Shown: positions 3,601 to 53,764 of the stretch, one piece after another
Position numbering within the stretch: position 1 is the first letter of the stretch
Layout: every line of letters begins with the position of its first letter
Source: Bacteriovoracaceae bacterium
Lineage (GTDB): Bacteria > Bdellovibrionota > Bacteriovoracia > Bacteriovoracales > Bacteriovoracaceae
Length of the DNA stretch: 53,764 bases
Assembly: GCA_018649885.1 (NCBI GenBank)
Contig: JABIHA010000041.1
Coordinates: 1 to 53,764 of the forward strand
Direction: 5' to 3'
The notes under the pieces: model-generated
What the model was told of the DNA's origin: nothing
Databases searched by the model: none
The model's input: the letters and a program-made list of their open reading frames with translations, nothing else
Made by a program: the position numbers and the translations under genes

Positions 3601-3603
3601 TCT

Positions 3604-35080: not shown

Positions 35081-35095
35081 AAATTGTGCATAAAA

Positions 35096-35119: not shown

Positions 35120-35146
35120 CCAAAAAAATAATTAAATATATAATTA

Positions 35147-36187: not shown

Positions 36188-36414
36188 TGCCTTATTTCTC
36201 CTCAAGCAGTCTATATATACTCGCGTGAGCAAGGTTTTCAAGTAAAGATTTAAGCCGATCAAAATTGTTGTATAATTTTATTTCCTAAAAAAGAGCTCCC
36301 CCCCCTTTTGTTAATTGGATCATTTTGCCCCGTTTCCCGAGAGCCCATCCTAGAACGGCTAAAGGAGTCTCTGAGTAACCCGATCGGTTGGGGCGAGAAT
36401 AAAAAGGGGCGAAA

Positions 36415-38619: not shown

Positions 38620-38628
38620 TATTAGTTC

Positions 38629-40605
38629 CTAAGAAGTTTTAGAGATGGGTATTTGTACTATAAAAGTGGTATTGGACATTCTGTCGTCAATACAAAATCC
38701 CCCACCATGTTTTTCGATAATTGATTTAGAAATACTCAGACCTATTCCCGTGCCTTTCCCTACTTCTTTGGTAGTAAAAAATGGATTGAATATTTTATCA
38801 TGTAACTCCTGTGATATACCATTTCCACTATCAATCACTCTTAACTCAATAACCATTTTTCCCTCAACTGGCTTCTTAGTAAGTTCTAGTCGCACCCACT
38901 TTTCATCAAGATTTTCAATTGCATCATAAGCATTACCTAATAAATTAATCAAAACCTGAGAAAGCTGAACTCTTAAACAAGAAATCTTCTCATCTAGAGC
39001 AGGGTTCTCCCAATCTAGAATTAAATCGACACCAGCGATTTTAAATTTTTCTTGGCATAGGGCCAGCGAGTCATTTAAAAGTTCTTTAAAACTGCAATCA
39101 GAATACTCTTCACTTGCCTCATCTCTAGAAATAACTCTAAGGCCATTCACAATTTTAGTAATCCTGAGCACAGTCAAATCTATTTTTTCTAGATAGGAAA
39201 AAACTAATTCTTTAGACAACTTCCCTTTTTCAATATTTTTTCGAAGTACTTTTGATGTTGTCACAATAATGGTGATTGGATTGTTAATTTCATGGGCCAT
39301 CCCACCAGCCATCACCCCCAGGGCCTTCATTTTAGAGGAGTAAATGAGCTGTTGTTTAGTATTTTCTACTTCTATTATTTTTTCTGATAATTTCACATTT
39401 TTTTCTTCTAGCTGATTGTGCATTTGTAAAAGATTAGTTGTCATAAAATCAAATGTTTTTTCCAATACCTTAACTTCATTTAGATTTTTAGTTTCCTCTG
39501 CGCTCCAAACTTTATTATTTGAAATATGAAGTGCTTTTCCTGTTAATTGTTGTAGTGGCTTAAAGATAATCTGTGAGATTTTCCTTGATAGAAAAATAAT
39601 GAGAATTACTGTAAATAGAGTGATAATGAACAATGTGCTCTTTAGCTTACCTATGGGAGCATAAGCTTCATTTTGATCAATTTTGGCCACGACTCCCCAT
39701 CTTAAAAGAGGAATATAACTCCAAACTGCTATTGTCTCTTCCGCTCTATAATCAAAAGACTTACCACTTCCACTATTACCACGAACAGCTTCCTGAGTGG
39801 GAAAAGCATAATCAGCACCCAGTTTCACACTTTTTCCCAAACTAGGAGCGGAATCATGTCTTAAAGGATTTATAAAAACTGCTTTTTCTCCCTCCCTAGC
39901 ACCAATTAATGTCTCCCCAGTGTCTTTTAAACCTGTTCTATCATTAATCATGTTAATGGTTCCGGACATATCAATCTCTAATACAATGACTCCAATTTGC
40001 AGACCATTAAATCCTTGAACAGGAGCGGAGATATACATCTGTGGCATCTGGTGGTGGTGAATATTTTTTACCACTTGGGAAATATAAATTCCTTTTCTGC
40101 CCTCTAGAAATACAGAACTAATATTTTCGGGGAGTCTTTCGCCCAGGTGTTTTTGATGTAACTTTTGTGCTGTATATACAATTTGCCCTTCCCCATCAAG
40201 TAGCATCAAATCATGATATTTATAGCTCTTCACAAATGTTTTGAGCTGATTATCGAGCATTGTTTTTGCTTTTATATATGAGCTCGATTGCTTGTCCCTG
40301 AGATTTCGCCCCAAAATGGGTAAATTGGTTTTAATATTATAATACTCACTGGCAACCCTAATATCAGAGATTCGCTCTCCAAAATGTGATTCAATTTTCC
40401 TTACAATTAGTTTTGAAATACTCTTTAATGAGTCGAGACTATTTCTTTCTATTTCAATTTTTGCCATTTCTATCACTATAAAAGAGAAAAAAAGAATTGG
40501 AACTAAAGAAGCCAGTAAGAAAACTATTGTTGATTTTGAACGCAAGGAAGGATCAATAATTCGGTCACGAAGTTTTAAATATTTTTTAATTTTCTTATAT
40601 TTCAT
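38629..40605 (-). CDS. Membrane sensor histidine kinase (Cache-HAMP-HisKA-HATPase)
   Basis: Two TMs flanking a periplasmic domain; HEINNP, QVLINLLGNA, DSGNGI, PFFTTK, GTGIGL motifs. Confidence 0.95.
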   Translation of the reverse strand: MKYKKIKKYLKLRDRIIDPSLRSKSTIVFLLASLVPILFFSFIVIEMAKIEIERNSLDSLKSISKLIVRKIESHFGERISDIRVASEYYNIKTNLPILGRNLRDKQSSSYIKAKTMLDNQLKTFVKSYKYHDLMLLDGEGQIVYTAQKLHQKHLGERLPENISSVFLEGRKGIYISQVVKNIHHHQMPQMYISAPVQGFNGLQIGVIVLEIDMSGTINMINDRTGLKDTGETLIGAREGEKAVFINPLRHDSAPSLGKSVKLGADYAFPTQEAVRGNSGSGKSFDYRAEETIAVWSYIPLLRWGVVAKIDQNEAYAPIGKLKSTLFIITLFTVILIIFLSRKISQIIFKPLQQLTGKALHISNNKVWSAEETKNLNEVKVLEKTFDFMTTNLLQMHNQLEEKNVKLSEKIIEVENTKQQLIYSSKMKALGVMAGGMAHEINNPITIIVTTSKVLRKNIEKGKLSKELVFSYLEKIDLTVLRITKIVNGLRVISRDEASEEYSDCSFKELLNDSLALCQEKFKIAGVDLILDWENPALDEKISCLRVQLSQVLINLLGNAYDAIENLDEKWVRLELTKKPVEGKMVIELRVIDSGNGISQELHDKIFNPFFTTKEVGKGTGIGLSISKSIIEKHGGGFCIDDRMSNTTFIVQIPISKTS

Positions 40606-40869
40606 TTAGATACAAACTTCCCTTCGTTAGTACAGTTGCTTAGATTGAGTTAATAACTAAGACATACTGACTTTTCGAACGCTTTTGTATTATTGGTAAA
40701 TTTAAATAGCTGAATTTTACTTAAGACAACGCTGATTTTTCTTTGCTTTTTTAAATCGTAAACTAAGATATTTTTGAATGATACGTCACGAATTCCAACC
40801 TAGATTATGTTAGGAAGAGATGCAGAAAAGGTGTTTAGAGATAGGCCAATTCCATAAATATCATTTAGT

Positions 40870-41577
40870 TTATTTAAATTTAGCAATAAGGGATAGTGTA
40901 TAGTGATAGTCATGCATTCCTTTGCCGGGAACAGGAAAATTATCATACTTCCAAAGATAGGCCGTTTTCATGGAAAAAATAGATGTTAGAGTTACTATAA
41001 TTGAGGGTTCAAAGTTTATTTGATAGTCCTTAGACTCAGAAAAATTCGGCAAATATTCAATCCACAACTTCCCCGATAAATCACTCTTAAAAGATTTGTG
41101 ACCTTCTAGATAGACTCTCCCCTTGCTGTACTTCTTTTTGGCCACTGTACTCACTGTATTTTTTTCGACAGAGTATCTATAACCGAGTTCAGTAAGCACA
41201 TGATGGGCTTCAGATTTAGAAAGTGCGACTTTCATTCCAATATCCGTATTGTACCTTCTTTTTAATCCTGAATAGCGATCAGATTCGGCCATCTCTCCAA
41301 AAAAGACTGATAGATCTGAGGTTAAGGAAAAGTCATAACGTAAACCCACATTCCAGTTTTCCACAATCCGCACTTTTTCAGATTCACCGTAATTATAACC
41401 ACCACTGAGGGCCAATAGGTTTTGATGATATTGGTAGCTGTTTTGTGAAGCAAAATTGTATGTTTTTAGATCAGTATTACCACCCGTCAAGTTCACACTT
41501 GCACTATCTTCTGTTTGAAACTGGGCCTGCACGCTTGTGGAAACAAAAATTGCAAACACAATACCAATTATATTCAT
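40870..41577 (-). CDS. DUF481/YdiY-like outer-membrane protein
   Basis: Signal peptide, GGNTD motif, beta-strand pattern, C-terminal F. Confidence 0.8.
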   Translation of the reverse strand: MNIIGIVFAIFVSTSVQAQFQTEDSASVNLTGGNTDLKTYNFASQNSYQYHQNLLALSGGYNYGESEKVRIVENWNVGLRYDFSLTSDLSVFFGEMAESDRYSGLKRRYNTDIGMKVALSKSEAHHVLTELGYRYSVEKNTVSTVAKKKYSKGRVYLEGHKSFKSDLSGKLWIEYLPNFSESKDYQINFEPSIIVTLTSIFSMKTAYLWKYDNFPVPGKGMHDYHYTLSLIAKFK

Positions 41578-41686
41578 ATTTTCACCTAATAAAAAAATAA
41601 CACCTATAAAATATATTTCATAATCTACCCATTAGGCAACGCCCAAAAGTGTAGACGTTCCATTACAGTTTCATTACAGTAAAGCC

Positions 41687-42841
41687 ATGGTCATGAAACC
41701 CTACGAAAAAAGAGCTTACTCCTTTCTTTTAGTTCTCACGGTATTCTCAACTATTGTTTTCCAGCTGTGGAGAACACTTTTTAATAACTTTGGCGTCGAA
41801 GCTATTAAGCTCACCAGTGATGCGGTTGGACTAATCCAGGCCGTCAGAGAAATTCCCGGTTTTCTATCCTTTTTAGTAATATATATAGCTTTGTTGATCA
41901 AAGAAAAATGGCTCGCTCTGATATCCGCGCTTGTACTTTGCCTTGGTGTTGCTGTCACGGGCTACTTTCCTAGTAAGTTAGGTTTACTGGGAACTACTCT
42001 TTTAATGTCCATCGGTTTTCACTTCTATGAAACCATAAATCAATCTCTTTCAATGCAGTATTTTTCAATTGAAAACTTCACCACGGCCACAGCAAATTTA
42101 CGAAGGTTTGGGGCCCTAGCAGCAATTGTCACAGGAATTTGCATCTCAGCTTTAACAAGGTTTTTAGAATTTAAAGAGCTCTACCTACTTTTTGGATTGA
42201 TTGGCTCTGCTGGAATTTTTATTTCTCTCATTTTTTTGCCAGATGAAGACCAGGCCCCAATCCAAAGAAAGGGATTAGTACTTAAAAAAAAATATTGGAC
42301 TTACTACGCCCTGGTTTTTCTGAATGGTGCCAGAAGACAAATATTTACCGTCTTTGCCCTTTTTTTGCTGGTTAAAAGACACCAAATATCAGCAAGGGCA
42401 GTATCACTGCTATTTGTTCTCAATAATGTGGTCAATTTTTTTATTTATCCATATGTTGCAAAGCTCATTAATAAATGGGGCGAAAAACTCACACTCAAAA
42501 TTGAGTATTCTTCGCTTATCATTATTTTCCTTATGTATGCACTACTCGATCATCCTGTAATGGCCTTGGTTTTGTATATTCTCGATAACTTCTTTTACGC
42601 TTTTACCATGGCTACAAGAAGCTATTTTCAAAAGATTGCCGCCCCTGAGGACTTGGCCCCTACTGCTGGGGTTAGTTTTACAATAAATCATATTGCTGCT
42701 GTAGTGGTTCCCTTCGTCGGGGGTCTTCTATGGTTAATAGACTGGAGGATCCCATTTCTATTGGCCTCCACTTTTACCGTTGCTTCCTTCTATCTCACCA
42801 GGTTCGTCATAATAGACGCCACAAACCAGCGTTTACAATAG
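41687..42841 (+). CDS. MFS transporter
   Basis: About 12 TM segments; REIPGFL, GFHFYET, GARRQIF, FTINHIAAV motifs. Confidence 0.9.
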   Translation: MVMKPYEKRAYSFLLVLTVFSTIVFQLWRTLFNNFGVEAIKLTSDAVGLIQAVREIPGFLSFLVIYIALLIKEKWLALISALVLCLGVAVTGYFPSKLGLLGTTLLMSIGFHFYETINQSLSMQYFSIENFTTATANLRRFGALAAIVTGICISALTRFLEFKELYLLFGLIGSAGIFISLIFLPDEDQAPIQRKGLVLKKKYWTYYALVFLNGARRQIFTVFALFLLVKRHQISARAVSLLFVLNNVVNFFIYPYVAKLINKWGEKLTLKIEYSSLIIIFLMYALLDHPVMALVLYILDNFFYAFTMATRSYFQKIAAPEDLAPTAGVSFTINHIAAVVVPFVGGLLWLIDWRIPFLLASTFTVASFYLTRFVIIDATNQRLQ

Positions 42842-43036
42842 TCTGAGATAGCTCATACTTTAAATTGAGCAAATAAAAAATCTCTTTAAAAGCTCTAAAA
42901 TTAATGAATATAGACCTATGAATTCAAGTCATTTTTACACAGTTTAGGGAAACTTATCGTCTATATGCATAGGACGGGAGTAAAATTACTTAAGAAAACA
43001 ATTGGCATATAATTTTGCCCCTAAGGAGGTTAGAAG

Positions 43037-44116
43037 ATGAAAGTCTTCACACTAAGTGCCCTTTTCATTAGTATCTTATTTCCAGTTTGCCATCTTCAAG
43101 CGGCCAATGACAAGGCTGAAAAATGTGGTAATCCATCAGAGGCCGCCTGCGATGAAGTTAGGACTCTTGATGGACATCAGTGGAATCTGATAAACAGATC
43201 TAATACTGGTGATGAGTTTTGGGAAGACCAAACGCCAAATGAAAGTGGTGAAAAACTCATTTGGGGAGAAAGGGCCAGCACAGTTGTTTTCTTTGATCAG
43301 GCCAATGACAATTGCAATACAGTGATTAGTTACGACGACGAAAGTGGTGGATCTCACCAATTAGACCAGAGATTGCCCACTGCAGGTGATTTTAAAACAG
43401 CAGTTAAACACAGTATCCAAAAAGCTCTCACAGATATGGTTGACTACGACTACTGGACTAGCACTCCAGCTCCTGAAGGATATGGTCCAACTATGACTAT
43501 GCTCTTTCTTGGAAACCCTCAGCCAGCTACGGAAAAGCCAGGGTACTCCTACCAATACTGGAAAAAAGGTCATAATCCGCATTCTCAAAGATGTATCGTA
43601 AAAAAGCCTTATCCAGCGGCCTATCCGAGAGAGAAGATTGCTCACGGAATTCGCTTTAACCATAAAAAACATATACCAGCTACAAGTGGCAATTGCACTG
43701 CCTGTCACAATGATCAATCAAATGTCGCCTTTATTCCCGATAGGAAAACTTGTAGTAACTGTCACGATGTTGAGACCTCTGATTGTATGATGTGTCACAC
43801 CGACTATGATTTTTATAATCCAGTGAGAACAAAGGCCACTGTAAGCGATGTCCAGAAAAGCTTTCTTGATCGTTTTAAAGGAATTCACTTCGATTCTTTC
43901 TCTGAAGATATGCCGGCGATGATTCCCAACCCTCACGACCTGAGTCAAGCGGGGAGCGATAAGGTTTCTTGCAAGTCTTGCCATATAAAAATAGAAGCCA
44001 GTACCAGGGCTTCTGATAATAATCTTCCGGGCCAAAGGCATATGAGCTTTCGGAATATATCAAAGCATGTGGACAATAAGACTAGCTGTAAGTCTTGCCA
44101 TCAGGTAAGCCCTTAA
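43037..44116 (+). CDS. Secreted DUF1566/Lcl-like domain fused to a pentaheme c-type cytochrome
   Basis: Signal peptide; WED..LIW..C..RLPT..YWTST; FNHKKH plus 5 CXXCH. Confidence 0.85.
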   Translation: MKVFTLSALFISILFPVCHLQAANDKAEKCGNPSEAACDEVRTLDGHQWNLINRSNTGDEFWEDQTPNESGEKLIWGERASTVVFFDQANDNCNTVISYDDESGGSHQLDQRLPTAGDFKTAVKHSIQKALTDMVDYDYWTSTPAPEGYGPTMTMLFLGNPQPATEKPGYSYQYWKKGHNPHSQRCIVKKPYPAAYPREKIAHGIRFNHKKHIPATSGNCTACHNDQSNVAFIPDRKTCSNCHDVETSDCMMCHTDYDFYNPVRTKATVSDVQKSFLDRFKGIHFDSFSEDMPAMIPNPHDLSQAGSDKVSCKSCHIKIEASTRASDNNLPGQRHMSFRNISKHVDNKTSCKSCHQVSP

Positions 44117-44156
44117 GTAGTTGCTGTTGAAACTCTTTTCATAACTTAATCTAATG

Positions 44157-44195
44157 AGAGCTCATTACTCTAAGTAAAGAGCTCTTTATTTTTTT
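44157..44195 (+). terminator. Intrinsic terminator after the pentaheme gene
   Basis: AGAGCTCATTACT/AGTAAAGAGCTCT stem followed by a T-run. Confidence 0.65.
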
Positions 44196-44358
44196 GTACA
44201 ATCCATTCAACATTTTTTTGAAAATAGTTCAGCCTTAATTTAAGACACTTTCCAAAGTGCAAAAGATTGTTTTATGAACTGCTGCAGATCATATATTTAT
44301 TTTTTACTTGAGATATGTTATCTGCATAAATAGTTTAGCTTATATCAACGAGGAGTTA

Positions 44359-44691
44359 ATGATGAAAGCAACAGTAGCATTGGCAGTTTTTTTACTTTTT
44401 GGACTACAGTCAGCCTTTGCGAGCTTCGGGTACTTTAAAGCATTCGATGCCCAGTATCCAAATAATAGTCTTAAGAGGTGTGATACTTGTCATATAGTAC
44501 CAGGACCCGGCGTAGATAATTTAACCTTATACGGAAAATCTATGTGGGAATTTAGAGATCTCGCCACTGCTAAAGAAATGCTTGAGGCGATCGAGTTAGT
44601 TGATTCTGACGAAGACGGATTTCTTAATAAAGCAGAAATTGAGGCTGAGACTAACCCGTCTGACAAGGCAGACTTTCCAGCAGAGCAGTAG
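44359..44691 (+). CDS. Monoheme cytochrome c with DxDxDG Ca-binding motif
   Basis: GAGGAG RBS, signal peptide, CDTCH, DSDEDGFLN..EI...TNP. Confidence 0.85.
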   Translation: MMKATVALAVFLLFGLQSAFASFGYFKAFDAQYPNNSLKRCDTCHIVPGPGVDNLTLYGKSMWEFRDLATAKEMLEAIELVDSDEDGFLNKAEIEAETNPSDKADFPAEQ

Positions 44692-44826
44692 CCTCAGAGC
44701 AGTCGAAAAGGCGCAGGCACTACGATCATTAAGTACAGCTTAAGCCCCTAAGTGGCCCGATCGAGAAGATGCCTACGCCTTTTGTCTTTTTGCTGAGACA
44801 AAAATCTTGAAACACATGGGGGAACC

Positions 44827-45432
44827 ATGAAGAAGCTTATACTAACATTCATTACATCAACACTTCTTTTGGTGGCTGGAGACTCTTTTGCTATTGCTGA
44901 ATATCTCCCAGGCTTTATTTCTATCTATCCAAAGACTGTGGACACACCACTAAATGACTGTACTATTTGCCATCGCAGTGGCAGAGGTGGCCTTCTCAAT
45001 TCCTATGGGCTTGAATTCGTCATGAACGAATACAATTTTAAAAACATAGAAAGCCAAGATTCTGATGGTGATGGAGTGGTAAATATCGACGAGATTATTG
45101 CTCTTACCCACCCCGCGGATGGACCAAATGATCAAATAAAGGCCTTTATATTTGATAAAAAAGGATATATGGGAAAAGTGCGATTTGATCACACTGCTCA
45201 TCAATATAAAGGCCAATACATGTCGGGTGGAAACTGCGCAAGCTGTCACCAAAATGGTGATTTTTCCAAGTTCATCAGCTTTACCACAAATGGTGATGAT
45301 AGAAAGGCAAAGGCCCATGGTCTTTGTTATGGATGTCACACTGAGGCCAATGGTTATGGCAATACCAATGCTCCGATGGTTTGTGACCAATGTCACAAAG
45401 CCGATGACGGTGGAGTTTGGAGCGAGCCTTAA
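44827..45432 (+). CDS. Tetraheme cytochrome: monoheme/DxDxDG domain fused to a c7 (PpcA-like) triheme domain
   Basis: CTICH and DSDGDG, then VRFDHTAH, CASCH, AHGLCYGCH, PMVCDQCH. Confidence 0.88.
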   Translation: MKKLILTFITSTLLLVAGDSFAIAEYLPGFISIYPKTVDTPLNDCTICHRSGRGGLLNSYGLEFVMNEYNFKNIESQDSDGDGVVNIDEIIALTHPADGPNDQIKAFIFDKKGYMGKVRFDHTAHQYKGQYMSGGNCASCHQNGDFSKFISFTTNGDDRKAKAHGLCYGCHTEANGYGNTNAPMVCDQCHKADDGGVWSEP

Positions 45433-45449
45433 AAATAGTTTCATTGAAA

Positions 45450-45477
45450 TATTGTGGCGGTTCGCGTCGCCACAATA
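45450..45477 (+). other. Intergenic stem-loop (terminator or mRNA stabiliser)
   Basis: TATTGTGGCGG-ttcgcg-TCGCCACAATA. Confidence 0.55.
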
Positions 45478-45580
45478 AGTAATCTGGCTACTTCAGTCAT
45501 GTACAAGCCATCCATTTAGTCATAATATTTTACGGCTCCATTTCATGGATACGATCAGTTAGGGAAATACAGGGAAGAAG

Positions 45581-46795
45581 ATGCTCTCTTTTCTATTCTT
45601 TTTGGGTTTACTATTACCCCAAGACCTCCAGGCGTTAGTCTCCTTTGAGTCTCGCCTGACAAGTGGTTATTACCGTGACTCCATTAAGAAAAACCATCTC
45701 ACTCTCAACTACAATTGGCGTTTTAACTACACCCATCAAAGCGGTGTAGAAACTTTTATCGACTTTGGGGTTAACAATAACTTTGTCCAAGATGAGTGGG
45801 GACTCTACCCCTACCAAGCCTATGTTTCGATTCCACTAGCTGAGGCCTTTGAAAAAACACCATTTCACATTCCAAGGGTTCAAGTGGGTCGTCAACTGCT
45901 GACCGATGGATTTGAATTTGCGCTAATTGACGGAGCTGTAATGCCCTATTACTTCTCTCCCCGCCTATACGCAAAGCTCTTTGCAGGAGCACTTCATATC
46001 CCCGAGGACACTCCTGAAAATAGTTTTAATGACCAGCTCTACGGCGGAAGTTTGAGCTACAGATTGAGCGGGGCCATCTTAAAAGGCGGCGGCATATTTA
46101 AACAAAACCAAAGTGCTGAACGCTACTTAAGTTATTTCACTATCTATAAAAACTTTGAAGCTCTTCCTCTAACTCCTGGAATCCTGATAAAAGAGCAATT
46201 CGATGTCAAAGAGAAATCACACGACCAGTCACTGATCGAACTTCGCGCTCACCTAGCAAAAATCAGCGGGACACTTTTCCACTCCTCTAGAAGAGTAGAC
46301 CCCCTACTTTCACAAAAAAAACGTTTGATTTACCAGCTATTCGCTGTAGACAAGCAAAAGAGCTTTGGCACCACAGGTACCTGGGATATTCATGAAATGC
46401 TTCAAATCGAGGGACGATTTGAAAGAGTCGAATACCACTCGAGAGTGAGAAAAGAAATTGGTGATCAAGGAACAGGATCTCTGATTATCGGAAACAATAA
46501 TTACTCTATTTCTCCTTTTCTTACCAGGCTATCTTCCTATGGCGGGTACTTCTGGGATTATGGACTCAGCTCTAAAATTAGATTAAAACGAGAGCTAAGC
46601 CTTGAGCTTGAAAGTAACACTATTAAATATAAAAAGATTAACGGGATGTCTGGCTTTGCTTATCACGCATTGGCCGGCATAAGTTTAGTTTTTCCACCCA
46701 ATTGGCAGGCCAAAGCATTAATTGAGCTGGAAAGAAATCACTTGTACAAACTTGATTCGAGGGCACTATTTCATGTCTCGCATTTTTATTTCTAA
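45581..46795 (+). CDS. Putative outer-membrane beta-barrel porin of the cytochrome cluster
   Basis: Signal peptide, no Cys, amphipathic strands, RVQVGRQ..IDGA motif, C-terminal HFYF. Confidence 0.75.
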   Translation: MLSFLFFLGLLLPQDLQALVSFESRLTSGYYRDSIKKNHLTLNYNWRFNYTHQSGVETFIDFGVNNNFVQDEWGLYPYQAYVSIPLAEAFEKTPFHIPRVQVGRQLLTDGFEFALIDGAVMPYYFSPRLYAKLFAGALHIPEDTPENSFNDQLYGGSLSYRLSGAILKGGGIFKQNQSAERYLSYFTIYKNFEALPLTPGILIKEQFDVKEKSHDQSLIELRAHLAKISGTLFHSSRRVDPLLSQKKRLIYQLFAVDKQKSFGTTGTWDIHEMLQIEGRFERVEYHSRVRKEIGDQGTGSLIIGNNNYSISPFLTRLSSYGGYFWDYGLSSKIRLKRELSLELESNTIKYKKINGMSGFAYHALAGISLVFPPNWQAKALIELERNHLYKLDSRALFHVSHFYF

Positions 46796-47378
46796 GCAAC
46801 TAGTATTGCTTACAATATGTTTAAATCTATTTCCCATCTCCTTATACGCTGAGAAGGGAAAGCCTGCACTTATTAAAGAGCTATCGATCCTCTTTTCTCA
46901 TAAAAAACATGCTGAATCATTTAGTGACATGAAAATTTCTTGCAAAGATTGTCACAATTTCTCTATAAAACCCAGTGAGAAAGGTCCTCTGGGAGAGCTT
47001 ATTGAAGAGTCGGCCCTAAAACCGGCCAGGCAAATTTGTCACCAATGCCATCAGGGAAAAGTTATGGTCCCGACTCCCAACCGCTGTACACTTTGCCATC
47101 TGCCTTCAAAAGATTTGAAGCCTAATGATCATTTTATTAGTTGGAAAAATCGCCACGGCCAAATGGCCCAAATGGATAGTGACTCTTGCAAGAAATGCCA
47201 CTCCAAAAATGATTGCTCAGATTGCCACCTTCAAAGAAATGGCCATAGCGTTCGAGTCCACCGTGGTGGGTTTCGCTTCACCCACTCTATGGAAGCAAGG
47301 CTTAACCCCAATAAATGTACAACCTGTCACCAATCCACTGGCTTTTGCCTTGATTGCCATATGGGGAAGAACAGATGA
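46773..47378 (+). CDS. Periplasmic heptaheme cytochrome c (c3-like N-terminus)
   Basis: Signal peptide, FSHKKH, 7 CXXCH. Confidence 0.92.
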   Translation: MSRIFISKQLVLLTICLNLFPISLYAEKGKPALIKELSILFSHKKHAESFSDMKISCKDCHNFSIKPSEKGPLGELIEESALKPARQICHQCHQGKVMVPTPNRCTLCHLPSKDLKPNDHFISWKNRHGQMAQMDSDSCKKCHSKNDCSDCHLQRNGHSVRVHRGGFRFTHSMEARLNPNKCTTCHQSTGFCLDCHMGKNR

Positions 47379-47668
47379 AGCTTAGAAACCTCATTTTATA
47401 TTTTAGTTTGATAATAGTTGTTTCTTGTAATGATGAACCAAAGGGTGAGAATTATCAGCTTAAAAGCAGCGATGATTTAATTTTAACAGCAGATAATCAT
47501 CCCCATGGATTTACTTATCAAAATTGCTTTTACTGTCACGTAAAGGCCAATATTCACCAAGAAGATCGCTTGGGTACTAATCTTTTAGAACTGGCCCGTG
47601 AGCTGACGGCCGTACAGGGTTTGGGATCATGCCAAATGTGTCACGGGGTTAATGGTGTGAGTCCATGA
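47375..47668 (+). CDS. Diheme cytochrome c lipoprotein
   Basis: Lipobox VVSC; CFYCH and CQMCH; ATGA coupling. Confidence 0.88.
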   Translation: MKLRNLILYFSLIIVVSCNDEPKGENYQLKSSDDLILTADNHPHGFTYQNCFYCHVKANIHQEDRLGTNLLELARELTAVQGLGSCQMCHGVNGVSP

Positions 47669-48189
47669 AGTTAATTTTTTTAATCCTCCTCATTTTTCCT
47701 TTGGCCCTAGGTGCAAAAACCGCAAAAAAATTTCAACTTGTAAGGTTGGACCCCCATGGAGAACTAGGTGTGGCCCTATCGACTTCTAGGCTTAACTCAA
47801 ATAGTGAATGCATGGTCTGTCACATCAGCTCAGACTCAACTACAAAGGCCAGTGCAATATATTCCAATATCTCTATCCGCTGCACGGCCTGCCACAATAA
47901 GTCCCCTCACAGTGGGCTCAAAGAACATTTGGGACGTGAGCTATCAAATCTCAAATTGGGACTCAAAGGAAAAATTGACTGCATAAGCTGTCATCGTTCC
48001 CACAGGGAGAAAACTGCAAGTGACAAAAAACTTTTGGGGAAAAACCTAGACTCACCCAAAGGGGCTTCATTTATTTACACAAAAAAAGAGCCTATCGCTT
48101 TGAAAAAGGGTAAAATAGCCAGAAGAAGTAGATTTCCAATGTTAAAAAGGACTTGTGTAAATTGTCACACAAATCACGGATACCAATAG
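47665..48189 (+). CDS. Tetraheme cytochrome c
   Basis: Signal peptide; CMVCH, CTACH, CISCH, CVNCH. Confidence 0.9.
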   Translation: MKLIFLILLIFPLALGAKTAKKFQLVRLDPHGELGVALSTSRLNSNSECMVCHISSDSTTKASAIYSNISIRCTACHNKSPHSGLKEHLGRELSNLKLGLKGKIDCISCHRSHREKTASDKKLLGKNLDSPKGASFIYTKKEPIALKKGKIARRSRFPMLKRTCVNCHTNHGYQ

Positions 48190-50273
48190 TCACAGTTTGT
48201 CTTTTCATAGGGGCAATGTTTTTCAGTACCTCTCGCGCTGATCAAGGCCTTTCGGCCAAAAATATCTTTAATCAGGGACTGGACTCTCCTTCTACACTAA
48301 CTTATTGCAATGGAGCACTTTGGGCCTACTCAGTTGGCACTGGAATGGTGACAAAGCTTGAAGCTACCACAGGGAAAATTCTTAAAAGCCTAGGTGTTTC
48401 AATTATCATAAAAAAAAAGGTTGCAGATTTTGAGGTGGTCTCACTGGCCTGCTTTAATGACCAACTACTTCTAGGTGGAATCATTTTTAACAGTGAGAAA
48501 ATAAGGATCACCAACGCTTTATATAGTTATTCACCAAAACAAGGTTTTATAGCAAAGAATATTCCTGAGTCTGACACTCACTTAAGAGATATCAACTGCG
48601 GGAAAAAGAAATGCACTGTTATTCAAGGTGAAGTTCATATATCTGAGGATTTAGACAATTGGTCACGGCTCAAAGTTCCAGCCTCCTCAAAAATTACCAA
48701 CAAAAAAAGCCGGCCCGATATAAACCCCTTTGCCGACTGGCAGGATAAGTTTGTCCTCGGCAGTGGACGCTATATCAGAGGAAGCTTCGCTGGAGCTGAT
48801 CAACTCTTTTTGCTGGACTCTTTAAGAGCTTCCATCGTGTCAGTAAATGGTGTTCAAAAATACTTAGATGGGGCCGGGGCACTTAACAAATGGGGCAAAT
48901 GGGGTGGTTGGGAAGGGCAGCTGATGTTCCCAAAGGCCATATCATATATCAAAAAATATGATGTGCTCGCCGTTTCAGATGTGGCCTTAAAATTTGTCTT
49001 TATTTATACAAAGCAAGGTGATTATATTGGAAAGTTGGGAAGTGATGCTGATAATGTGCCCTACCGTTATCCTCTGGATTTAGAAGTCCACGCTGATACA
49101 ATTTTTATAGCTGATTTTCAAAATAACGCCGTTATTGCCACTCAAATTACCAGTGTAAATAAACAATTTGAAATTGATCGCGAAGATATTGATGCCCTAC
49201 TTCACCAAAATCTTTTTAAGAGAAGTGACATAAGAGAAGATCTGGTGAAAACCAGATGCCTCAACTGTCACGATGGCCTAGAAAAATACAGCCTTAGAAA
49301 ATTCATTGAACATCCCCAGTTATACAACCACCCAAGAGACGCTGAAGTCAGTGGTGAAATTGATCTGCCCTTAAAAAAGAAAAAAATGAATTGCAATACC
49401 TGTCACGACCAGCACCACGAAAGCATTGAGGGTATTTCATTTGATCCCAAGGGCGTCCAGAGAAAGGTGGCACCCATTCGCTATAACTTACGAAAAGAAT
49501 ATTCTAAGCTTTGTCTCACTTGTCATACTGACAAGGCCCAAAATTTTAACAATCACTTTGACTTGAATATGGACTTCAAAAAATCTAAGTCTACTAAAGA
49601 AAAAGGCCTGCGAGTGGTCTCTTGCTCACAGTGCCACTCGATGCATGCAGCTAAGGAAAAGCTCAATAAGATGAGAGATCCAAAGCTTTGCCTTAACTGT
49701 CATAAGGATCACTATAAACCAAAGTCACACTCTTTTGGTGTTGTGAAAGACAAGCTTGTTAATTGTTTTTCTTGCCACAACATCCACGGTGGCAAAAAAG
49801 AGTTTAGCTTCGCTCGCATGGGTAAAAACGGAAAAGAAAATGCCTGCAGTAATTGTCACCAAGACCTAGTCGCCAAGATTGGCTCCAATAAACACCTTTC
49901 AGTAAAAAAGAAGAAAAAACCTGTTATGGGGAAGTATGACTGGCCAAAGAATGAGGGGATTTGCTTAGACTGTCACAGGCCCCATAAAAAAGGCATCAGC
50001 ATAGAAAAAACCTGCGCCTCGTGCCACAAAAAGAAAATTCAAATCCACCAACCTCTTAACCCTGTGGCCAATACCTATAGAGCTGAAGGAATAAGACTTA
50101 ACGGTACAAAGGTTGTTTGTACCACTTGCCATCAGCACCACGGTTTAAGTAGCGAGAAAAAGTTCCTTAAACCCAAAGAAAGTCTTTTAATTTTTTGTTC
50201 CAGTTGCCATGGAGAAAAGACATTAAAGCTCTTTGATCATTATCACAGGGAAATAAAAAGGGCCGGGAAATGA
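48153..50273 (+). CDS. NHL/beta-propeller domain fused to an 11-heme cytochrome c
   Basis: WG..GQLMFPKAI..AVSD and YRYPLDLEV..IFIADFQN NHL-like repeats; 11 CXXCH, several in paired CXXCHxxH...CXXCH arrangement. Confidence 0.9.
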   Translation: MCKLSHKSRIPIVTVCLFIGAMFFSTSRADQGLSAKNIFNQGLDSPSTLTYCNGALWAYSVGTGMVTKLEATTGKILKSLGVSIIIKKKVADFEVVSLACFNDQLLLGGIIFNSEKIRITNALYSYSPKQGFIAKNIPESDTHLRDINCGKKKCTVIQGEVHISEDLDNWSRLKVPASSKITNKKSRPDINPFADWQDKFVLGSGRYIRGSFAGADQLFLLDSLRASIVSVNGVQKYLDGAGALNKWGKWGGWEGQLMFPKAISYIKKYDVLAVSDVALKFVFIYTKQGDYIGKLGSDADNVPYRYPLDLEVHADTIFIADFQNNAVIATQITSVNKQFEIDREDIDALLHQNLFKRSDIREDLVKTRCLNCHDGLEKYSLRKFIEHPQLYNHPRDAEVSGEIDLPLKKKKMNCNTCHDQHHESIEGISFDPKGVQRKVAPIRYNLRKEYSKLCLTCHTDKAQNFNNHFDLNMDFKKSKSTKEKGLRVVSCSQCHSMHAAKEKLNKMRDPKLCLNCHKDHYKPKSHSFGVVKDKLVNCFSCHNIHGGKKEFSFARMGKNGKENACSNCHQDLVAKIGSNKHLSVKKKKKPVMGKYDWPKNEGICLDCHRPHKKGISIEKTCASCHKKKIQIHQPLNPVANTYRAEGIRLNGTKVVCTTCHQHHGLSSEKKFLKPKESLLIFCSSCHGEKTLKLFDHYHREIKRAGK

Positions 50274-50416
50274 TTGATTTGAAAACTATTTTAGAGAAAA
50301 AAAGAAATCGAATCATCATAAGAGTTGCTGGAGTTATCATTGGTTTTTTAGGAAGCGCATTTATCATTTTCCAAGTGCTCTTTCTCTACCGGGTTCTCCC
50401 CCATGGAGGACTATAG
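50270..50416 (+). CDS. 48-aa single-TM microprotein (not in the ORF track)
   Basis: ATGA overlap upstream and stop abutting the next GTG; MIDLKTILEKKRNRIIIRVAGVIIGFLGSAFIIFQVLFLYRVLPHGGL. Confidence 0.7.
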   Translation: MIDLKTILEKKRNRIIIRVAGVIIGFLGSAFIIFQVLFLYRVLPHGGL

Positions 50417-51148
50417 GTGAAGAAGCTTTGGAAGAAATTTCTCCCCCTTCTATCATTTATGATTCCCTCTTTAATTGGAGGCGGACTTGTTGGGATCTAT
50501 CCCGGCTATAAAGTCTACGAGTATGTGTGGAAAGACGCCGCTTTTTGTACCTCGTGCCACGTTCACGACTACGCCACTGTTGGCTGGGAAAATAGCTCCC
50601 ATCAAAGACTGACCACCTGCCATGATTGTCATCACCAACCCCTACACGAATATGTTAGAGAGATGGTTGTGCTTCTTACAAAGAATCCTAAATTCCCAAA
50701 AGACTTAGACCATATCCCCTATATTCCAGATGATTTATGTCAAGCCTGCCATATTAGTAATCACCAGGACCTCTCCACTGTAACTGGACCTCTGGATAAG
50801 GAAGATATTGATAAATTGCACAAAGTTGATAAAACAAAAATGCATCAACTCCACTTCCAACACAAAACTAAATTGAAGCTTCTGGGAGAATTTAAAATAA
50901 AAAAGATTGACCGTATGGGAGATGTTGCGATCATACCGAGTAATGAAGAAGGTAAAGAAAGACCCATAACCTGTAGTGACTGTCATGGAGGTCCAAGTAA
51001 CAGGGCCCACAACTTCAGTGCCACTGATAGTGCCTGTGTCAGGTGTCACCAAGATGAGCATAAGAAAAAAATTGGTAAAGAATTCGGATGTCGAAACTGT
51101 CACTTTCAAGATTTCATGATTCCTACCAGTAAAAACCCCACAAAATAA
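50417..51148 (+). CDS. NapC/NirT-like membrane-anchored hexaheme cytochrome c
   Basis: N-terminal TM, then FCTSCH..W..SSH...CHDCH as in NapC/NrfH; 6 CXXCH. Confidence 0.85.
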   Translation: MKKLWKKFLPLLSFMIPSLIGGGLVGIYPGYKVYEYVWKDAAFCTSCHVHDYATVGWENSSHQRLTTCHDCHHQPLHEYVREMVVLLTKNPKFPKDLDHIPYIPDDLCQACHISNHQDLSTVTGPLDKEDIDKLHKVDKTKMHQLHFQHKTKLKLLGEFKIKKIDRMGDVAIIPSNEEGKERPITCSDCHGGPSNRAHNFSATDSACVRCHQDEHKKKIGKEFGCRNCHFQDFMIPTSKNPTK

Positions 51149-51261
51149 CCTTAAGTGTCTAATATTATGTCTAATTTACCCCCTTTTCCCTTCAAAAGTT
51201 TTCTTAAGAACTTCCTCTAAACACCCGAAGATTTGTTAGGTCTTACTAAAAAGTTGAGTAA

Positions 51262-52158
51262 ATGCGAACACTACTGCCGACTACCATTATTTTTCTGATC
51301 CTTATTGGCGCTTGTACCAAGCCCAATTTTGAGGAAAATAATGAAGTAGGCACGGGTAGTAACCCAAATACTGAAGCTCTGGTAGGCATTTATCCCCACA
51401 CAAATGAGTTCCTAGGCACGCCCCTTCATGGTGAAATTTACCAAAAAGATAAGAAAAACTGCACGGTATGCCACGGTGAATCCCTTCAAGGGGGGGAGTC
51501 AAAAATCTCATGCGCTAATTGTCATGATGGATTTCCCCATAGCGAAAATTTTATTAATACCAGCGCCCATGGGAGAGAATACTTTGAAAGTAAAGAGTCT
51601 TGCCAAAAATGCCATAAACCCCAAGGTGAAGGGAATTTAAGCATCTCTAAAACTTGCAACAATTGCCACTTCTTCCCACACTCCTCTACTTGGTTTCAGG
51701 GGAAAAAACACGGTAAAAAATTTCTGGAAGGGCAAAAGGGTAAAGGGCCAAAGGTCGGCTGCCTTGATTGTCATGCCCAAAAACATTCTTTCGAGGACGA
51801 AAAACACAAAGACCGCTATGTTACCTGTAACCGCTGCCACATAAATATGCCTCATAGAAAGGGCTTTGAATATTCCCATGGTAAAGAGGCCAGAAGTTAT
51901 GCTGGCAATTGCACCCTTTGCCACAAAGATATGAAAGAGCATCTGCCTCATTACAAAAAAGACTGTGAAACGTGTGTACAGGGCTGTAGAAAATGCCATG
52001 GGGATAGAGAAATTCAAATGCAGTGGAAAGATAAAGATGATGTTTCAAACTACTTACCTAGTGGCCCAAAACTAGAACATCTCTATCTCAATAAAGGATC
52101 AGGCAAAAGAGTTCCAGCTGCCATTAAGAAATACAAAAACCCACTTCACGATTTCTAA
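51262..52158 (+). CDS. Octaheme cytochrome c lipoprotein
   Basis: Lipobox LIGAC; 8 CXXCH; repeated PH.....HG units. Confidence 0.9.
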   Translation: MRTLLPTTIIFLILIGACTKPNFEENNEVGTGSNPNTEALVGIYPHTNEFLGTPLHGEIYQKDKKNCTVCHGESLQGGESKISCANCHDGFPHSENFINTSAHGREYFESKESCQKCHKPQGEGNLSISKTCNNCHFFPHSSTWFQGKKHGKKFLEGQKGKGPKVGCLDCHAQKHSFEDEKHKDRYVTCNRCHINMPHRKGFEYSHGKEARSYAGNCTLCHKDMKEHLPHYKKDCETCVQGCRKCHGDREIQMQWKDKDDVSNYLPSGPKLEHLYLNKGSGKRVPAAIKKYKNPLHDF

Positions 52159-52270
52159 ATAAAGATGACCTTAGGTATATGATTTCTTTATAACAAATAT
52201 CACTTTAATAAATTTTTGTTACTTCCAATCAGCTGGTAGATTTCTCTCATAAAACAACCAGGAGAACACC

Positions 52271-53044
52271 ATGCTACTTACTACCGCACTTACTCTCTTA
52301 TTTTCAATGACCAGTTTTGCCTCTGTAATTCAAACTAAGGCCATATTAAAAAACCCAGAAAGCACTACCATAATTAATAAGCAAATATTTGTTACAAATA
52401 TTGGTGAGAAAAACTGGAAGAAAAAAGATGGTGACGGCTTTATCTCAAAGTTCAACTTAGACGGAAAGGTAGAAAAGCTTAAATTCACTACAGGCCTTAA
52501 CGACCCAAAGGGTATTTTCCCCTTTAAAAATAGTCTTATTGTAACCGACATTAGCGAAGTTGTTGTCATAAACAGTATCTCAGGCAAAATCATCAAGAAA
52601 ATTCCAAATGGTGCCAGTTTTTTAAATGATATTTTCGTAACAGATCAAGGGCTTGCACTTGTGACGGATACCTATGACGGGAAAATCTACTCTGTGAATC
52701 TTGAGACTGAAGAAGTTAAAAGCATACTCACAAGTATGGAAGAGGCTCCCAATGGCATCTATCAAAAGCAAGGGTTTTTATATATAGGCTCTTGGGCCAA
52801 TGCGATCTCATCGCCAAGCCTAGGCAACCTAGACGGTGTTGAGCCTTACAAAGAAAATTCGTGGCTCATTAGTGATAAGACAGCTGGTGCTATTTATATT
52901 TTTGATGAACTCAGTGGCAAGCACCAAACAATTGACCACACTTTTACCGATGTTGCAGACATACACTATAGCAAAAAACACGGCATTTTGGTGGCGCCAT
53001 TAATGACCTCAGGAGAACTTGTTATCTATCCACTACCTCAATAA
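52271..53044 (+). CDS. Periplasmic SMP-30/gluconolactonase-like beta-propeller
   Basis: PES, DGDGFISK, GLNDPKG, FLND, PNG, LDG motifs; signal peptide. Confidence 0.8.
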   Translation: MLLTTALTLLFSMTSFASVIQTKAILKNPESTTIINKQIFVTNIGEKNWKKKDGDGFISKFNLDGKVEKLKFTTGLNDPKGIFPFKNSLIVTDISEVVVINSISGKIIKKIPNGASFLNDIFVTDQGLALVTDTYDGKIYSVNLETEEVKSILTSMEEAPNGIYQKQGFLYIGSWANAISSPSLGNLDGVEPYKENSWLISDKTAGAIYIFDELSGKHQTIDHTFTDVADIHYSKKHGILVAPLMTSGELVIYPLPQ

Positions 53045-53268
53045 TTCAATAGAGGTTTCTATAAAAATAAAATGCTCTAGATTACCTATAGGAACCTCTT
53101 TACACAATTTGCCAAGTGATAAAACTCACCTGGAGAATTGAGAAAAAGCATATTTAAATTATGACCCATATCACTTATGATGCTCTTCTATCTTAGTTTA
53201 GAAACTGTTTTTAAAAACCACGAATGTAGATAGCAAATAACAAAAAAAGAATCAACGAAGGGATAGTG

Positions 53269-53764
53269 ATGACTCTGCAGAAAAAGACTACCAAGAAAAA
53301 AGTGGCAAAGAAGAAGGCCACAACTAAAAAGGTAGCAAAGAAAAAAGCTACAACAAAAAAAGTAGTAAAGAAGAAGGCTACAGCTAAAAAGGCCACAAAG
53401 AAAAAAGTAGTAAAAAAGAAAGCTACAGCAAAAAAGGCCACAAAGAAAAAAGTAGCAAAAAAGAAAGCTACAGCTAAAAAGGCCACAAAGAAAAAAGTAG
53501 CAAAGAAGAAAACTACAGCTAAAAAGGCCACAAAGAAAAAAGCAACAGCTAAAAAGGCTTCAAAGAAAAAGGTAGCGAAGAAGAAAGCTGCCAAGAAAAA
53601 GCTTGAAAAAAAGAAAGCGGCAAAGAAGAAAGCCGATAAGAAAAAACTAGCTCAAAAGAAAGCTGCCAAGAAGAAAGCCGATAAGAAAAAATCAGCACAA
53701 AAGAAAGCTGCCAAGAAGAAAGCCGATAAGAAAAAATCAGCACAAAAGAAAGCTGCCAAGAAGA
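53269..53764 (+). CDS. Histone H1/Hc2-like Lys/Ala-rich repeat protein (3'-partial)
   Basis: ATG 53269 is open to the window end: MTLQKKTTKKKVAKKKATTKKVAKKK..., pentapeptide repeats. Confidence 0.8.
   Translation, partial: MTLQKKTTKKKVAKKKATTKKVAKKKATTKKVVKKKATAKKATKKKVVKKKATAKKATKKKVAKKKATAKKATKKKVAKKKTTAKKATKKKATAKKASKKKVAKKKAAKKKLEKKKAAKKKADKKKLAQKKAAKKKADKKKSAQKKAAKKKADKKKSAQKKAAKK

What the first reader, a model, noticed from the sequence alone, without database searches (positions are those of the whole stretch)
43037..52158. Porin-multiheme cytochrome cluster: candidate complete extracellular electron-transfer conduit
Seen: nine co-oriented c-cytochrome genes (5+1+4+7+2+4+11+6+8 = 48 CXXCH), a beta-barrel gene overlapping the heptaheme gene, two lipoprotein cytochromes, a c7-like shuttle and a NapC/NirT-like membrane cytochrome. 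No catalytic molybdo-, flavo- or NrfA (CXXCK) subunit is present. Known: a quinol dehydrogenase, periplasmic carriers, porin-cytochrome and surface cytochromes make up Mtr/Pcc conduits. This one differs from mtrCAB in its ~400-aa barrel and heme counts. Inference: an undescribed conduit in a probable predator lineage, for mineral/electrode respiration or electron exchange with other cells. Together with the BCR/IOR locus it points to an anaerobic lifestyle.
Basis: partly seen in the sequence, partly recalled or inferred. Interest (0 to 1): 0.9.

Follow-up and report, generated by a model that had tools for sequence, protein, structure and literature searches.

The report
Unannotated porin-cytochrome wire in predatory-lineage bacteria
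A conserved gene cluster in uncultured relatives of predatory Bdellovibrio bacteria most likely builds a chain of heme proteins that carries electrons across the whole cell envelope, using protein families that standard databases do not yet recognise.

Summary
Observation confirmed: nine cytochrome genes, 48 CXXCH, no CXXCK. The conserved unit is 45581-52158; the first three genes are a local addition, and a missed 48-aa membrane gene (50270-50416) is present in 28 of 28 related loci. The 404-aa protein models as a 22-strand plugless barrel with no Pfam, NCBIfam or PDB sequence match. Co-folding places the heptaheme against the barrel's inner face (0.72 versus best control 0.00). Barrel homologues occur in 32 of 401 phylum genomes, followed by the heptaheme gene wherever the contig continues. 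The NapC-like hexaheme is replaced in some loci by a tetraheme/NrfC/NrfD module, which supports a link to the quinone pool. Best reading: a Pcc-like but non-Mtr electron conduit of Bdellovibrionota. Direction and partner are untested; the hexaheme lacks the canonical quinol-site lysine, and no expression of the core was seen. The host has oxygen, nitrate and N2O reductases, so it is facultative, not strictly anaerobic. MtrAB was already reported in this phylum; this family was not found in print. New variant of a known kind.

The parts
43037..44116 (+). Accessory, not conserved: secreted pentaheme cytochrome with an N-terminal Lcl_C/DUF1566-like domain
   Evidence: 5 CXXCH; ESM Atlas Lcl_C look-alikes at 0.90, TM about 0.6, a lead only; no homologue in any fetched locus
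44359..44691 (+). Accessory: small secreted monoheme cytochrome with a DSDxDG (TSP3-like) motif; likely start ATG 44359
   Evidence: 1 CXXCH; weak NF041762 and PF18884; homologues near the cluster in 2 of 28 loci (L062, L073); RNA contig 44340-44712
44827..45432 (+). Accessory: tetraheme = monoheme domain like the previous gene + c7-type triheme domain
   Evidence: PF14522 31.4 bits, cut-off 24.8; NF043011 43 bits, cut-off 120; the full fusion was not found in related loci
45581..46795 (+). Core: outer-membrane beta-barrel, 22 strands, no plug domain, unannotated family
   Evidence: AlphaFold2 pLDDT 88.9, pTM 0.80; fold matches are usher and TonB-receptor barrels, Z about 20; no Pfam/NCBIfam/PDB sequence family; 64 homologous clusters
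46773..47378 (+). Core: heptaheme cytochrome; N-terminal c7-like triheme domain and C-terminal four-heme part predicted inside the barrel
   Evidence: 7 CXXCH, six further invariant His; complex score 0.72 vs control 0.00; follows the barrel in 19 of 21 and 21 of 21 loci
47375..47668 (+). Core: diheme lipoprotein, inferred outer-membrane cap of the conduit
   Evidence: Invariant lipobox Cys and two invariant non-motif His in 23 of 23
47665..48189 (+). Core: soluble tetraheme cytochrome with conserved RLDPHG start, inferred periplasmic carrier
   Evidence: 4 CXXCH, signal peptide without lipobox; conserved after the diheme in the close-clade loci
48153..50273 (+). Core: NHL six-bladed beta-propeller fused to an 11-heme MtrA/DmsE-like cytochrome (7-23 hemes in relatives)
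   Evidence: Profile hits TRIM71 NHL E 2e-35 and MtrA chain 6r2q_A E 1.3e-24; model and Foldseek to NHL domains, TM by target 0.7-0.8; upstream of the hexaheme in 28 of 28 loci
50270..50416 (+).
   Evidence: Present between the 11-heme and 6-heme genes in 28 of 28 loci, PHGG in 23 of 28; hydropathy peak 2.4; no credible family
50417..51148 (+). Core: membrane-anchored hexaheme with a NapC/NirT-like N-terminal half; inferred quinone/quinol oxidoreductase
   Evidence: One N-terminal hydrophobic helix; PF03264 22.1 bits vs cut-off 24.1, TIGR03153 36 vs 134; only cytochrome hit in PDB is NrfH, E 0.036; 45-60% identity across the phylum
51262..52158 (+). Core but variable: octaheme lipoprotein (6-30 hemes in relatives), candidate surface or periplasm-spanning cytochrome
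   Evidence: Lipobox Cys in consensus; heme number and orientation vary

Best explanation
The core cluster encodes an envelope-spanning multiheme electron conduit that works like the Geobacter Pcc/Ext systems but is built from its own protein families. Proposed path: quinol -> membrane hexaheme (with the 48-aa helix as partner subunit) -> NHL-fused 11-heme and soluble tetraheme in the periplasm -> c7-like end of the heptaheme -> its four C-terminal hemes inside the 22-strand barrel -> diheme and octaheme lipoproteins at the outer membrane -> an acceptor that cannot enter the cell (Fe/Mn oxide particles, humic or particulate quinones). The host would use it as one more low-oxygen respiratory exit beside nitrate and N2O. 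Shown here: genes, motifs, synteny, distribution. Predicted: barrel fold and barrel-heptaheme fit. Inferred: localisation, order of carriers, quinol chemistry, direction, acceptor. I put the architecture (a trans-outer-membrane heme wire tied to the quinone pool) at about 0.85 and outward respiration as its main use at about 0.6.
For: 22-strand barrel with no plug, so an empty lumen. Complex score 0.72, best control 0.00; that mark was reached by 116 of 157 solved and 2 of 215 mismatched pairs; runs agree in >=83% of contacts, partner pLDDT >=65. Contacts fall on 20 of 22 strands, on the hydrophilic face (mean hydropathy -1.0 vs +0.6), and cover 53 of 85 residues of the heme 4-7 part against 17 of 71 of the heme 1-3 part. 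Barrel-heptaheme adjacency in 19 of 21 and 21 of 21 loci, both misses at contig ends. Interchangeable inner-membrane modules beside the barrel: hexaheme in 10 of 21 loci, tetraheme/NrfC/NrfD-type in 6 of 21 (one has both, families), and a cytochrome b561-multiheme fusion in L066; such modules are the quinol oxidases of Geobacter (PMC13591261, passages). Hexaheme found in 18 of 30 barrel-positive and 0 of 20 barrel-negative genomes. In FG-1 the 11-heme/6-heme pair lies about 6 kb from an MtrB-like gene. Strong 2-oxoacid:ferredoxin oxidoreductase matches in 27 of 30 barrel-positive vs 5 of 20 barrel-negative genomes (kin not independent). ResB and CcsA present in G000.
Against: No experiment and no direction-specific marker. 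The hexaheme misses the NapC/NirT cut-offs and has His and Glu where NrfH has Met49 and Lys82. No menD, menB, mqnA or mqnC was found in G000 (92% complete), although 12 of 12 other family members tested match MenD. Surface exposure of the lipoproteins cannot be read from sequence. The co-fold had no hemes and may echo the solved MtrAB architecture. The organism is found in runs labelled marine or seawater metagenome, where metal oxides may be scarce, and it has oxygen, nitrate and N2O reductases. NapC/NirT proteins also sit in Fe(II)-oxidiser mto clusters (bioRxiv 2022.01.10.475773, passages).
Confidence: 0.6

Rival explanations
1. Same conduit, run inward or both ways: electrons from Fe(II), reduced humics or conductive particles reduce the quinone pool or periplasmic carriers and end on oxygen, nitrate or N2O.
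For: G000 has two heme-copper oxidases, a NOR-sized third homologue, NarG, clade II NosZ, alternative complex III and a Rieske/cytochrome b complex. The hexaheme's heme-1 site differs from known quinol oxidases. A NapC/NirT gene is part of the Sideroxydans mto cluster and direction there is unsettled.
Against: Large and expandable lipoprotein cytochromes (up to 30 hemes) and Cbc-like quinol modules are typical of reducers; Shi et al. 2014 found no pcc cluster in Fe(II) oxidisers (PMC4245776, passage).
Confidence: 0.2
2. The conduit is a redox buffer or detoxification route (heme capacitor for short anoxic spells, or surface reduction of soluble oxyanions as with Geobacter ExtHIJKL), not a growth-supporting respiration.
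For: Patchy distribution (32 of 401), highly variable heme numbers (29-68 per intact locus), no NrdD over cut-off in 50 genomes.
Against: Tight conservation of a membrane module (45-60% identity) and its replacement by NrfCD-type modules suggest coupling to energy metabolism; only negligible hits to Ext-operon models.
Confidence: 0.1
3. A predation or cell-contact device: the predator exchanges electrons with prey or host cells (for example dumping electrons into a respiring or metal-reducing prey).
For: Phylum-restricted in all named homologues; G000 has a Tad-pilus RcpC gene; NHL propeller and Lcl-like domains could be adhesive.
Against: Found in only 4 of 100 other genomes of the host's family, so not core predation machinery; no predation genes seen in the conserved neighbourhood; predation by G000 itself is not shown.
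Confidence: 0.06
4. The barrel is a transport or secretion pore plugged by the heptaheme (export of lipoprotein cytochromes, or metal/heme uptake), not an electron path.
For: Closest solved folds are ushers and TonB-dependent receptors (Z about 19-20), above MtrB (Z 14.9).
Against: Those matches follow strand number at 6-12% identity; there is no plug, TonB box region, chaperone or ABC gene in the conserved unit; all partners are cytochromes.
Confidence: 0.04

Closest known systems
Geobacter porin-cytochrome (Pcc) conduits: OmbB-OmaB-OmcB, ExtABCD
   Same: Barrel of 18-22 predicted strands next to a periplasmic cytochrome of 5-14 hemes and lipoprotein cytochromes (PMC4245776, passages); linked quinol modules resembling CbcSTU and CbcL in some loci.
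   Different: No detectable sequence family shared; heptaheme with c7-like N-domain; diheme lipoprotein; NHL-MtrA fusion, hexaheme and 48-aa helix encoded in the same cluster; different phylum. Remote homology to OmbB/ExtB could not be tested.
Shewanella MtrCAB + CymA (and MtoAB, PioAB)
   Same: Cytochrome inserted in a barrel; NapC/NirT-like membrane cytochrome; an MtrA-like multiheme domain is present.
   Different: 22 vs 26 strands, 404 vs about 650 aa; no TIGR03509 match in G000; the MtrA-like domain is fused to a propeller and is not the gene next to the barrel; no MtrC.
MtrAB of magnetotactic Bdellovibrionota FG-1/FG-2 (PMC13200544)
   Same: Same phylum, same proposed role; FG-1 also carries the 11-heme/small helix/6-heme module (L073) and a distant barrel-heptaheme-diheme unit (L085).
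   Different: The paper's section 19 describes only MtrAB; profile comparison of this barrel family with the FG-1 MtrB-like protein gives probability 0.1%.
NapC/NirT family (NrfH, CymA, ImoA)
   Same: One N-terminal membrane helix and the spacing of the first three heme motifs.
   Different: Six hemes, CXXCHXH instead of CXXCHXM, invariant Glu and no invariant Lys in the quinol-site segment, eight invariant non-motif His for six hemes, a dedicated small membrane partner gene.

Membership tests
MtrAB/MtoAB/PioAB | 26-strand MtrB/PioB-family barrel (TIGR03509) | tested here: not met
   22 strands, 404 aa; no family hit; no TIGR03509 match in G000 while FG-1 matches; hhalign 0.1%
MtrAB/MtoAB/PioAB | Decaheme MtrA-family cytochrome as the barrel's adjacent partner | tested here: not met
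   Adjacent partner is a c7-like heptaheme; the MtrA-like domain is in the NHL fusion, TIGR03508 65 bits vs cut-off 192
MtrCAB | Surface decaheme MtrC/OmcA | tested here: not met
   Lipoproteins have 2 and 8 hemes; PF22113 17 bits vs cut-off 30, TIGR03507 13.5 vs 209 or no hit
Pcc (Geobacter type) | Porin of 18-22 strands | tested here: met
   22 strands in the model; range from PMC4245776
Pcc (Geobacter type) | Adjacent periplasmic multiheme cytochrome (5-14 hemes) that fits the porin | tested here: met
   7 hemes, adjacency, predicted complex 0.72 vs 0.00; prediction, not measurement
Pcc (Geobacter type) | Outer-membrane lipoprotein cytochrome exposed at the surface | tested here: inconclusive
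   Lipobox conserved; side of the membrane cannot be determined
Pcc (Geobacter type) | Sequence homology to OmbB/OmaB/OmcB or ExtA-D | not testable with these tools
   No OmbB/ExtB sequence or profile was available to me; library scans gave no hit; Atlas shows unnamed look-alike barrels in other phyla
Pcc/Mtr conduits | Measured electron transfer across the outer membrane | not testable with these tools
   Needs biochemistry
NapC/NirT | N-terminal membrane helix and heme 1-3 motif spacing | tested here: met
   Hydrophobic segment 8-27; alignment to NrfH 2j7a_C residues 36-127, E 0.036
NapC/NirT | Score over family cut-off; four hemes | tested here: not met
   PF03264 22.1 vs 24.1; TIGR03153 36 vs 134; six hemes. 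Some homologues carry PF03264 in precomputed lists
NapC/NirT | Quinol-site lysine (NrfH Lys82, CymA Lys91) | tested here: not met
   Aligned position is invariant Glu82; no invariant Lys in that segment. The alignment has a gap here, so Glu82 may instead stand for Asp89
PpcA/c7 (gene 44827) | Stand-alone triheme c7 | tested here: not met
   c7 domain present over Pfam cut-off but fused to a monoheme domain; NF043011 43 vs 120
Class I benzoyl-CoA reductase (window 4189-8403) | Four subunits over BcrABCD or BzdNOPQ cut-offs | tested here: inconclusive
   Four-gene layout present, best hits BcrC 252/421, BcrB 216/487, BcrA 224/578, BcrD 132/313 bits, all under cut-off

The most novel reading that the evidence does not exclude
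Low-oxygen members of a predatory phylum carry their own, independently assembled class of electron conduit: a short heptaheme in a 22-strand barrel fed by a new two-subunit quinol oxidoreductase (hexaheme plus 48-aa helix) through a propeller-fused cytochrome, and they use it to discharge or draw electrons through particles or the cells they attach to, allowing predation under anoxia.
Probability: 0.15. Interest if true: 0.9.

Novelty: new variant of a known kind. Interest (0 to 1): 0.66.

Why it matters
It adds a self-contained, cloneable (about 6.6 kb core) candidate conduit outside the Mtr and Geobacter families, in about 8% of sampled genomes of a phylum regarded as aerobic predators. Because the barrel has no Pfam or NCBIfam model and the cytochromes are annotated as hypothetical or 'c3 family', marker-based surveys would miss it. 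It makes two questions testable: how few hemes suffice to cross an outer membrane in a 22-strand barrel, and how Bdellovibrionota conserve energy in anoxic habitats. The hexaheme with an altered quinol site and a dedicated micro-protein partner may be a new subtype of quinone oxidoreductase.

Tried and rejected
Word-indexed homologue search with the barrel found only itself among 3877 candidates; the exhaustive search then found 64 clusters. Pattern scans of genomes could not be seeded with the barrel or heptaheme alignments, so the named-genome survey rests on the hexaheme's exact motifs and can miss divergent carriers and barrel-only loci. No Pcc-type solved barrel appeared in the top rows of three fold searches; that absence shows nothing. 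The one RNA run laid (X18, 0.08 of words) had 4 contigs, all on the three accessory genes and none on the core: no evidence for or against expression of the core, and DNA in the library was not excluded. Small-share runs (9 of 20) were not used for habitat. Sigma-70 promoter and terminator scans were at shuffle level (24 vs 25.7; 15 vs 10.5); repeats were heme-motif codons; no Rfam or tRNA hit. NrdD was uninformative (0 of 50 over cut-off). Flank-gene identities were too few to place the genome below phylum. A heme-ligand role for the small protein's His is weakened: 5 of 28 lack it. Two marginal barrel matches (E > 1e-5) of the 32 were left out of the later 30-genome set, and only 4 of the 12 distant matches were fetched as long loci. 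Three look-ups in earlier scan findings returned nothing. Supplements of PMC13200544 could not be read, and those of the MHCscan survey (PMC11475568; 76 new cytochrome and 42 accessory families) were not examined; either may list these proteins.
Full report
Observation. Heme motifs number 5, 1, 4, 0, 7, 2, 4, 11, 6 and 8, in total 48, with no CXXCK; shuffles give at most 4 in 2000 trials. From the barrel gene to the hexaheme gene all junctions overlap or abut (-23, -4, -4, -37, -4, 0 nt), whereas the first three genes are separated by 135-242 nt. The window is a whole contig of a 5.4 Mb genome, 92% complete. Three DNA runs cover 30 of 30 bins of 35000-53764 with no joints listed and contigs bridging the inner and outer junctions, so chimerism is unlikely. 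Eight of 20 listed runs hold half or more of the cluster's words, all labelled marine metagenome; without the possible source they come from five named studies and one unnamed.

The barrel. It matches no Pfam or NCBIfam family, alone or across 47 homologues, and no PDB sequence. An exhaustive search finds 64 clusters at 50% identity, 44 of them at E <= 1e-30. AlphaFold2 gives pLDDT 88.9 and 22 strands starting directly after the signal peptide, so there is no plug. Nearest solved folds are usher and TonB-receptor barrels (Z 19-20.6, rmsd 3.8-4.8 A, about 340 aligned, 6-12% identity); MtrB scores Z 14.9, rmsd 6.1 A. The Atlas lists unnamed look-alike barrels in Myxococcota, Zixibacteria, Desulfobacterota, Binatota and Calditrichota (feature score 0.98, TM 0.87-0.89), so it probably belongs to a wider unannotated superfamily.

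Barrel-heptaheme fit. Co-folding scored 0.72 (runs 0.72, 0.77, 0.69) against a best control of 0.00; this mark was reached by 116 of 157 solved and 2 of 215 mismatched pairs, counts that hold only roughly with my alignments; runs agree in at least 83% of contacts and the partner's pLDDT is at least 65. From the residue list, contacts touch 20 of 22 strands (my strand limits, with the long third loop cut out of strands 5 and 6), in alternating positions on the hydrophilic face (mean hydropathy -1.0 vs +0.6), and involve 53 of 85 residues of the heme 4-7 part but 17 of 71 of the c7-like heme 1-3 part. I infer that four hemes thread the lumen towards the outer loops while the triheme domain stays periplasmic. 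Hemes were not modelled, I did not see coordinates, and the pass may reflect likeness to the solved MtrAB architecture.

Conservation. A barrel profile matches 32 of 401 genomes of the phylum (18 at E < 1e-60, 12 distant, 2 marginal), and 4 of 100 other genomes of the host's family. The distant barrels are true homologues (hhalign 99.7%). In 21 long loci (17 close, 4 of the 12 distant) the heptaheme follows the barrel in 19, both misses at contig ends. A genome-collection scan with the hexaheme gave 28 loci: 22 titled with Bdellovibrionota names, 3 'Deltaproteobacteria', 3 unlabelled; named hits of the heptaheme and hexaheme protein searches have the same labels. I therefore infer the host is a member of Bdellovibrionota; it has a Tad-pilus RcpC gene, but predation is not shown. 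In these 28 loci (which overlap the 21) the 11-heme gene precedes the hexaheme in 28, a barrel is present in 21 and is followed by the heptaheme in all 21; five of the seven barrel-less loci were tested and all five genomes have a barrel elsewhere. The system is thus two modules: barrel-heptaheme-diheme, and 11-heme/small helix/hexaheme, with the tetraheme and a 6-30-heme lipoprotein usually attached. The pentaheme gene had no homologue in any locus, and the monoheme type appeared near 2 of 28; the closest long metagenome locus (L110, 71% in the hexaheme) lacks all three upstream genes.

New parts. A 48-codon ORF at 50270-50416 fills the gap between the 11-heme and hexaheme genes and has a counterpart of 37-59 aa in 28 of 28 loci, one hydrophobic helix ending in a PHGG-like motif. 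The 11-heme protein is an NHL six-bladed propeller (PDB profile hits E 2e-35; Foldseek TM by target 0.7-0.8) fused to an MtrA/DmsE-like cytochrome (6r2q_A, E 1.3e-24). The hexaheme has one N-terminal helix and aligns weakly with NrfH, but has His for Met49 and Glu at Lys82, and eight invariant non-motif His. The ImoA preprint (passages) states that the Met is dispensable in the family while the Lys is considered important, so quinol activity is inferred, not established.

Link to the quinone pool. Beside the barrel, 10 of 21 loci have the hexaheme and 6 of 21 a tetraheme/NrfC/NrfD-type set (one both; 4 of the 6 with neither are cut by contig ends; NrfD-type subunit over the DsrP cut-off). L066 adds a cytochrome b561-multiheme fusion. 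These resemble Geobacter CbcSTU and CbcL, described as quinol-cytochrome c oxidoreductases feeding porin-cytochrome complexes (PMC13591261, passages). In FG-1 the 11-heme/hexaheme module sits about 6 kb from an MtrB-like gene and a distant barrel-heptaheme-diheme unit lies on another contig (L085). The hexaheme occurs in 18 of 30 barrel-positive and 0 of 20 barrel-negative genomes.

Host physiology. G000 has system II maturation genes, two heme-copper oxidases and a NOR-sized homologue, NarG and clade II NosZ over cut-off, alternative complex III and a Phs-like molybdoenzyme, no bd oxidase, no MtrB and no NrdD. It is best read as a facultative, low-oxygen respirer. Strong 2-oxoacid:ferredoxin oxidoreductase matches are in 27 of 30 barrel-positive vs 5 of 20 barrel-negative genomes, 4 of 5 vs 5 of 20 within the family (negatives were all of one family and kin are not independent). 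No menaquinone marker was found in G000 although 12 of 12 other family members match MenD, which may be an assembly gap. The BCR-like genes 35 kb away are below all BCR cut-offs.

Comparison with what is known. Shi et al. 2014 give 18-22 strands and 5-14 hemes for Pcc porins and periplasmic cytochromes (PMC4245776, passages): this system fits that range and works like Pcc, but homology to OmbB/ExtB could not be tested. It fails the Mtr tests (26-strand MtrB per PMC12133095, passage). MtrAB has been reported in magnetotactic Bdellovibrionota (PMC13200544, passages and section 19; supplements unreadable), so extracellular-electron-transfer genes in this phylum are not new; that section does not describe the present family. 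Nine literature searches listed no paper describing it; PMC7399161 and PMC11475568 (passages) do not mention Bdellovibrio-type names in the main text, PMC11492766 (passages) covers Desulfuromonadia only. The library lacks most subscription papers.

Verdict. Real, conserved, phylum-restricted as far as searched, and very probably a porin-cytochrome electron conduit with its own inner-membrane module (about 0.85). Outward respiration is the best guess for its use (0.6); uptake, buffering and cell-contact roles remain open. New variant of a known kind; interest 0.66.

Noticed in passing
L004:6534-14580 (G000:C16): A second, larger candidate conduit in the same genome: 14- and 30-heme repeat lipoproteins, a 440-aa barrel-like protein with no family, and a 24-heme cytochrome, behind a ferredoxin-thioredoxin-reductase-like gene. 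Its barrel aligns weakly with the window's family (hhalign 35%, E 4e-4; control barrel 2%).
   Followed up: partly
L106:4170-8585 (G000:C146): HAO/HDH-like heptaheme next to a tetraheme, a 4Fe-4S NrfC/DsrO-like and an NrfD/DsrP-like gene, the same kind of module that replaces the hexaheme in other genomes.
   Followed up: partly
L098:2621-7914 (G000:C73): Rieske, cytochrome b, ExtQ-like membrane protein and a 951-aa eight-heme cytochrome: an unusual bc-type complex.
   Followed up: no
L107:236-958 (G000:C149): Eight-heme lipoprotein at a contig start whose N-terminus looks like the C16 repeat lipoproteins (by eye).
   Followed up: no
window 755-8403: IOR alpha (over cut-off) and beta divergent from a TetR gene and four BCR/2-hydroxyacyl-CoA-dehydratase-like genes, all below BCR cut-offs; may serve aromatic amino-acid fermentation or ring reduction.
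   Followed up: partly
window 53266-53764: Lys/Ala-rich repeat ORF (histone H1-like by composition) running off the contig end.
   Followed up: no
window 52271-53044: Secreted 257-aa protein without family, co-oriented after the cluster, with a paralogue on G000:C92; not conserved in related loci.
   Followed up: partly
window 40870-41577: DUF481 outer-membrane barrel gene on the minus strand upstream of the cluster; unrelated to the cluster's barrel.
   Followed up: partly
L050:5561-8880, L065:11400-12900: ResB/CcsA cytochrome c maturation genes lie directly beside the cluster in some genomes.
   Followed up: partly
L066:183-9819: Variant locus with a cytochrome b561-pentaheme fusion before the barrel and a 23-heme version of the propeller cytochrome.
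   Followed up: partly
L137-L149: Distant relatives of the hexaheme are 11-heme membrane-anchored cytochromes, sometimes tandem and next to tetraheme/NrfC genes, in other organisms.
   Followed up: no
G000 whole genome: No menD, menB, mqnA or mqnC found although 12 of 12 other family members tested match MenD; four barrel-positive genomes of other families also lack both menD and mqnC.
   Followed up: partly
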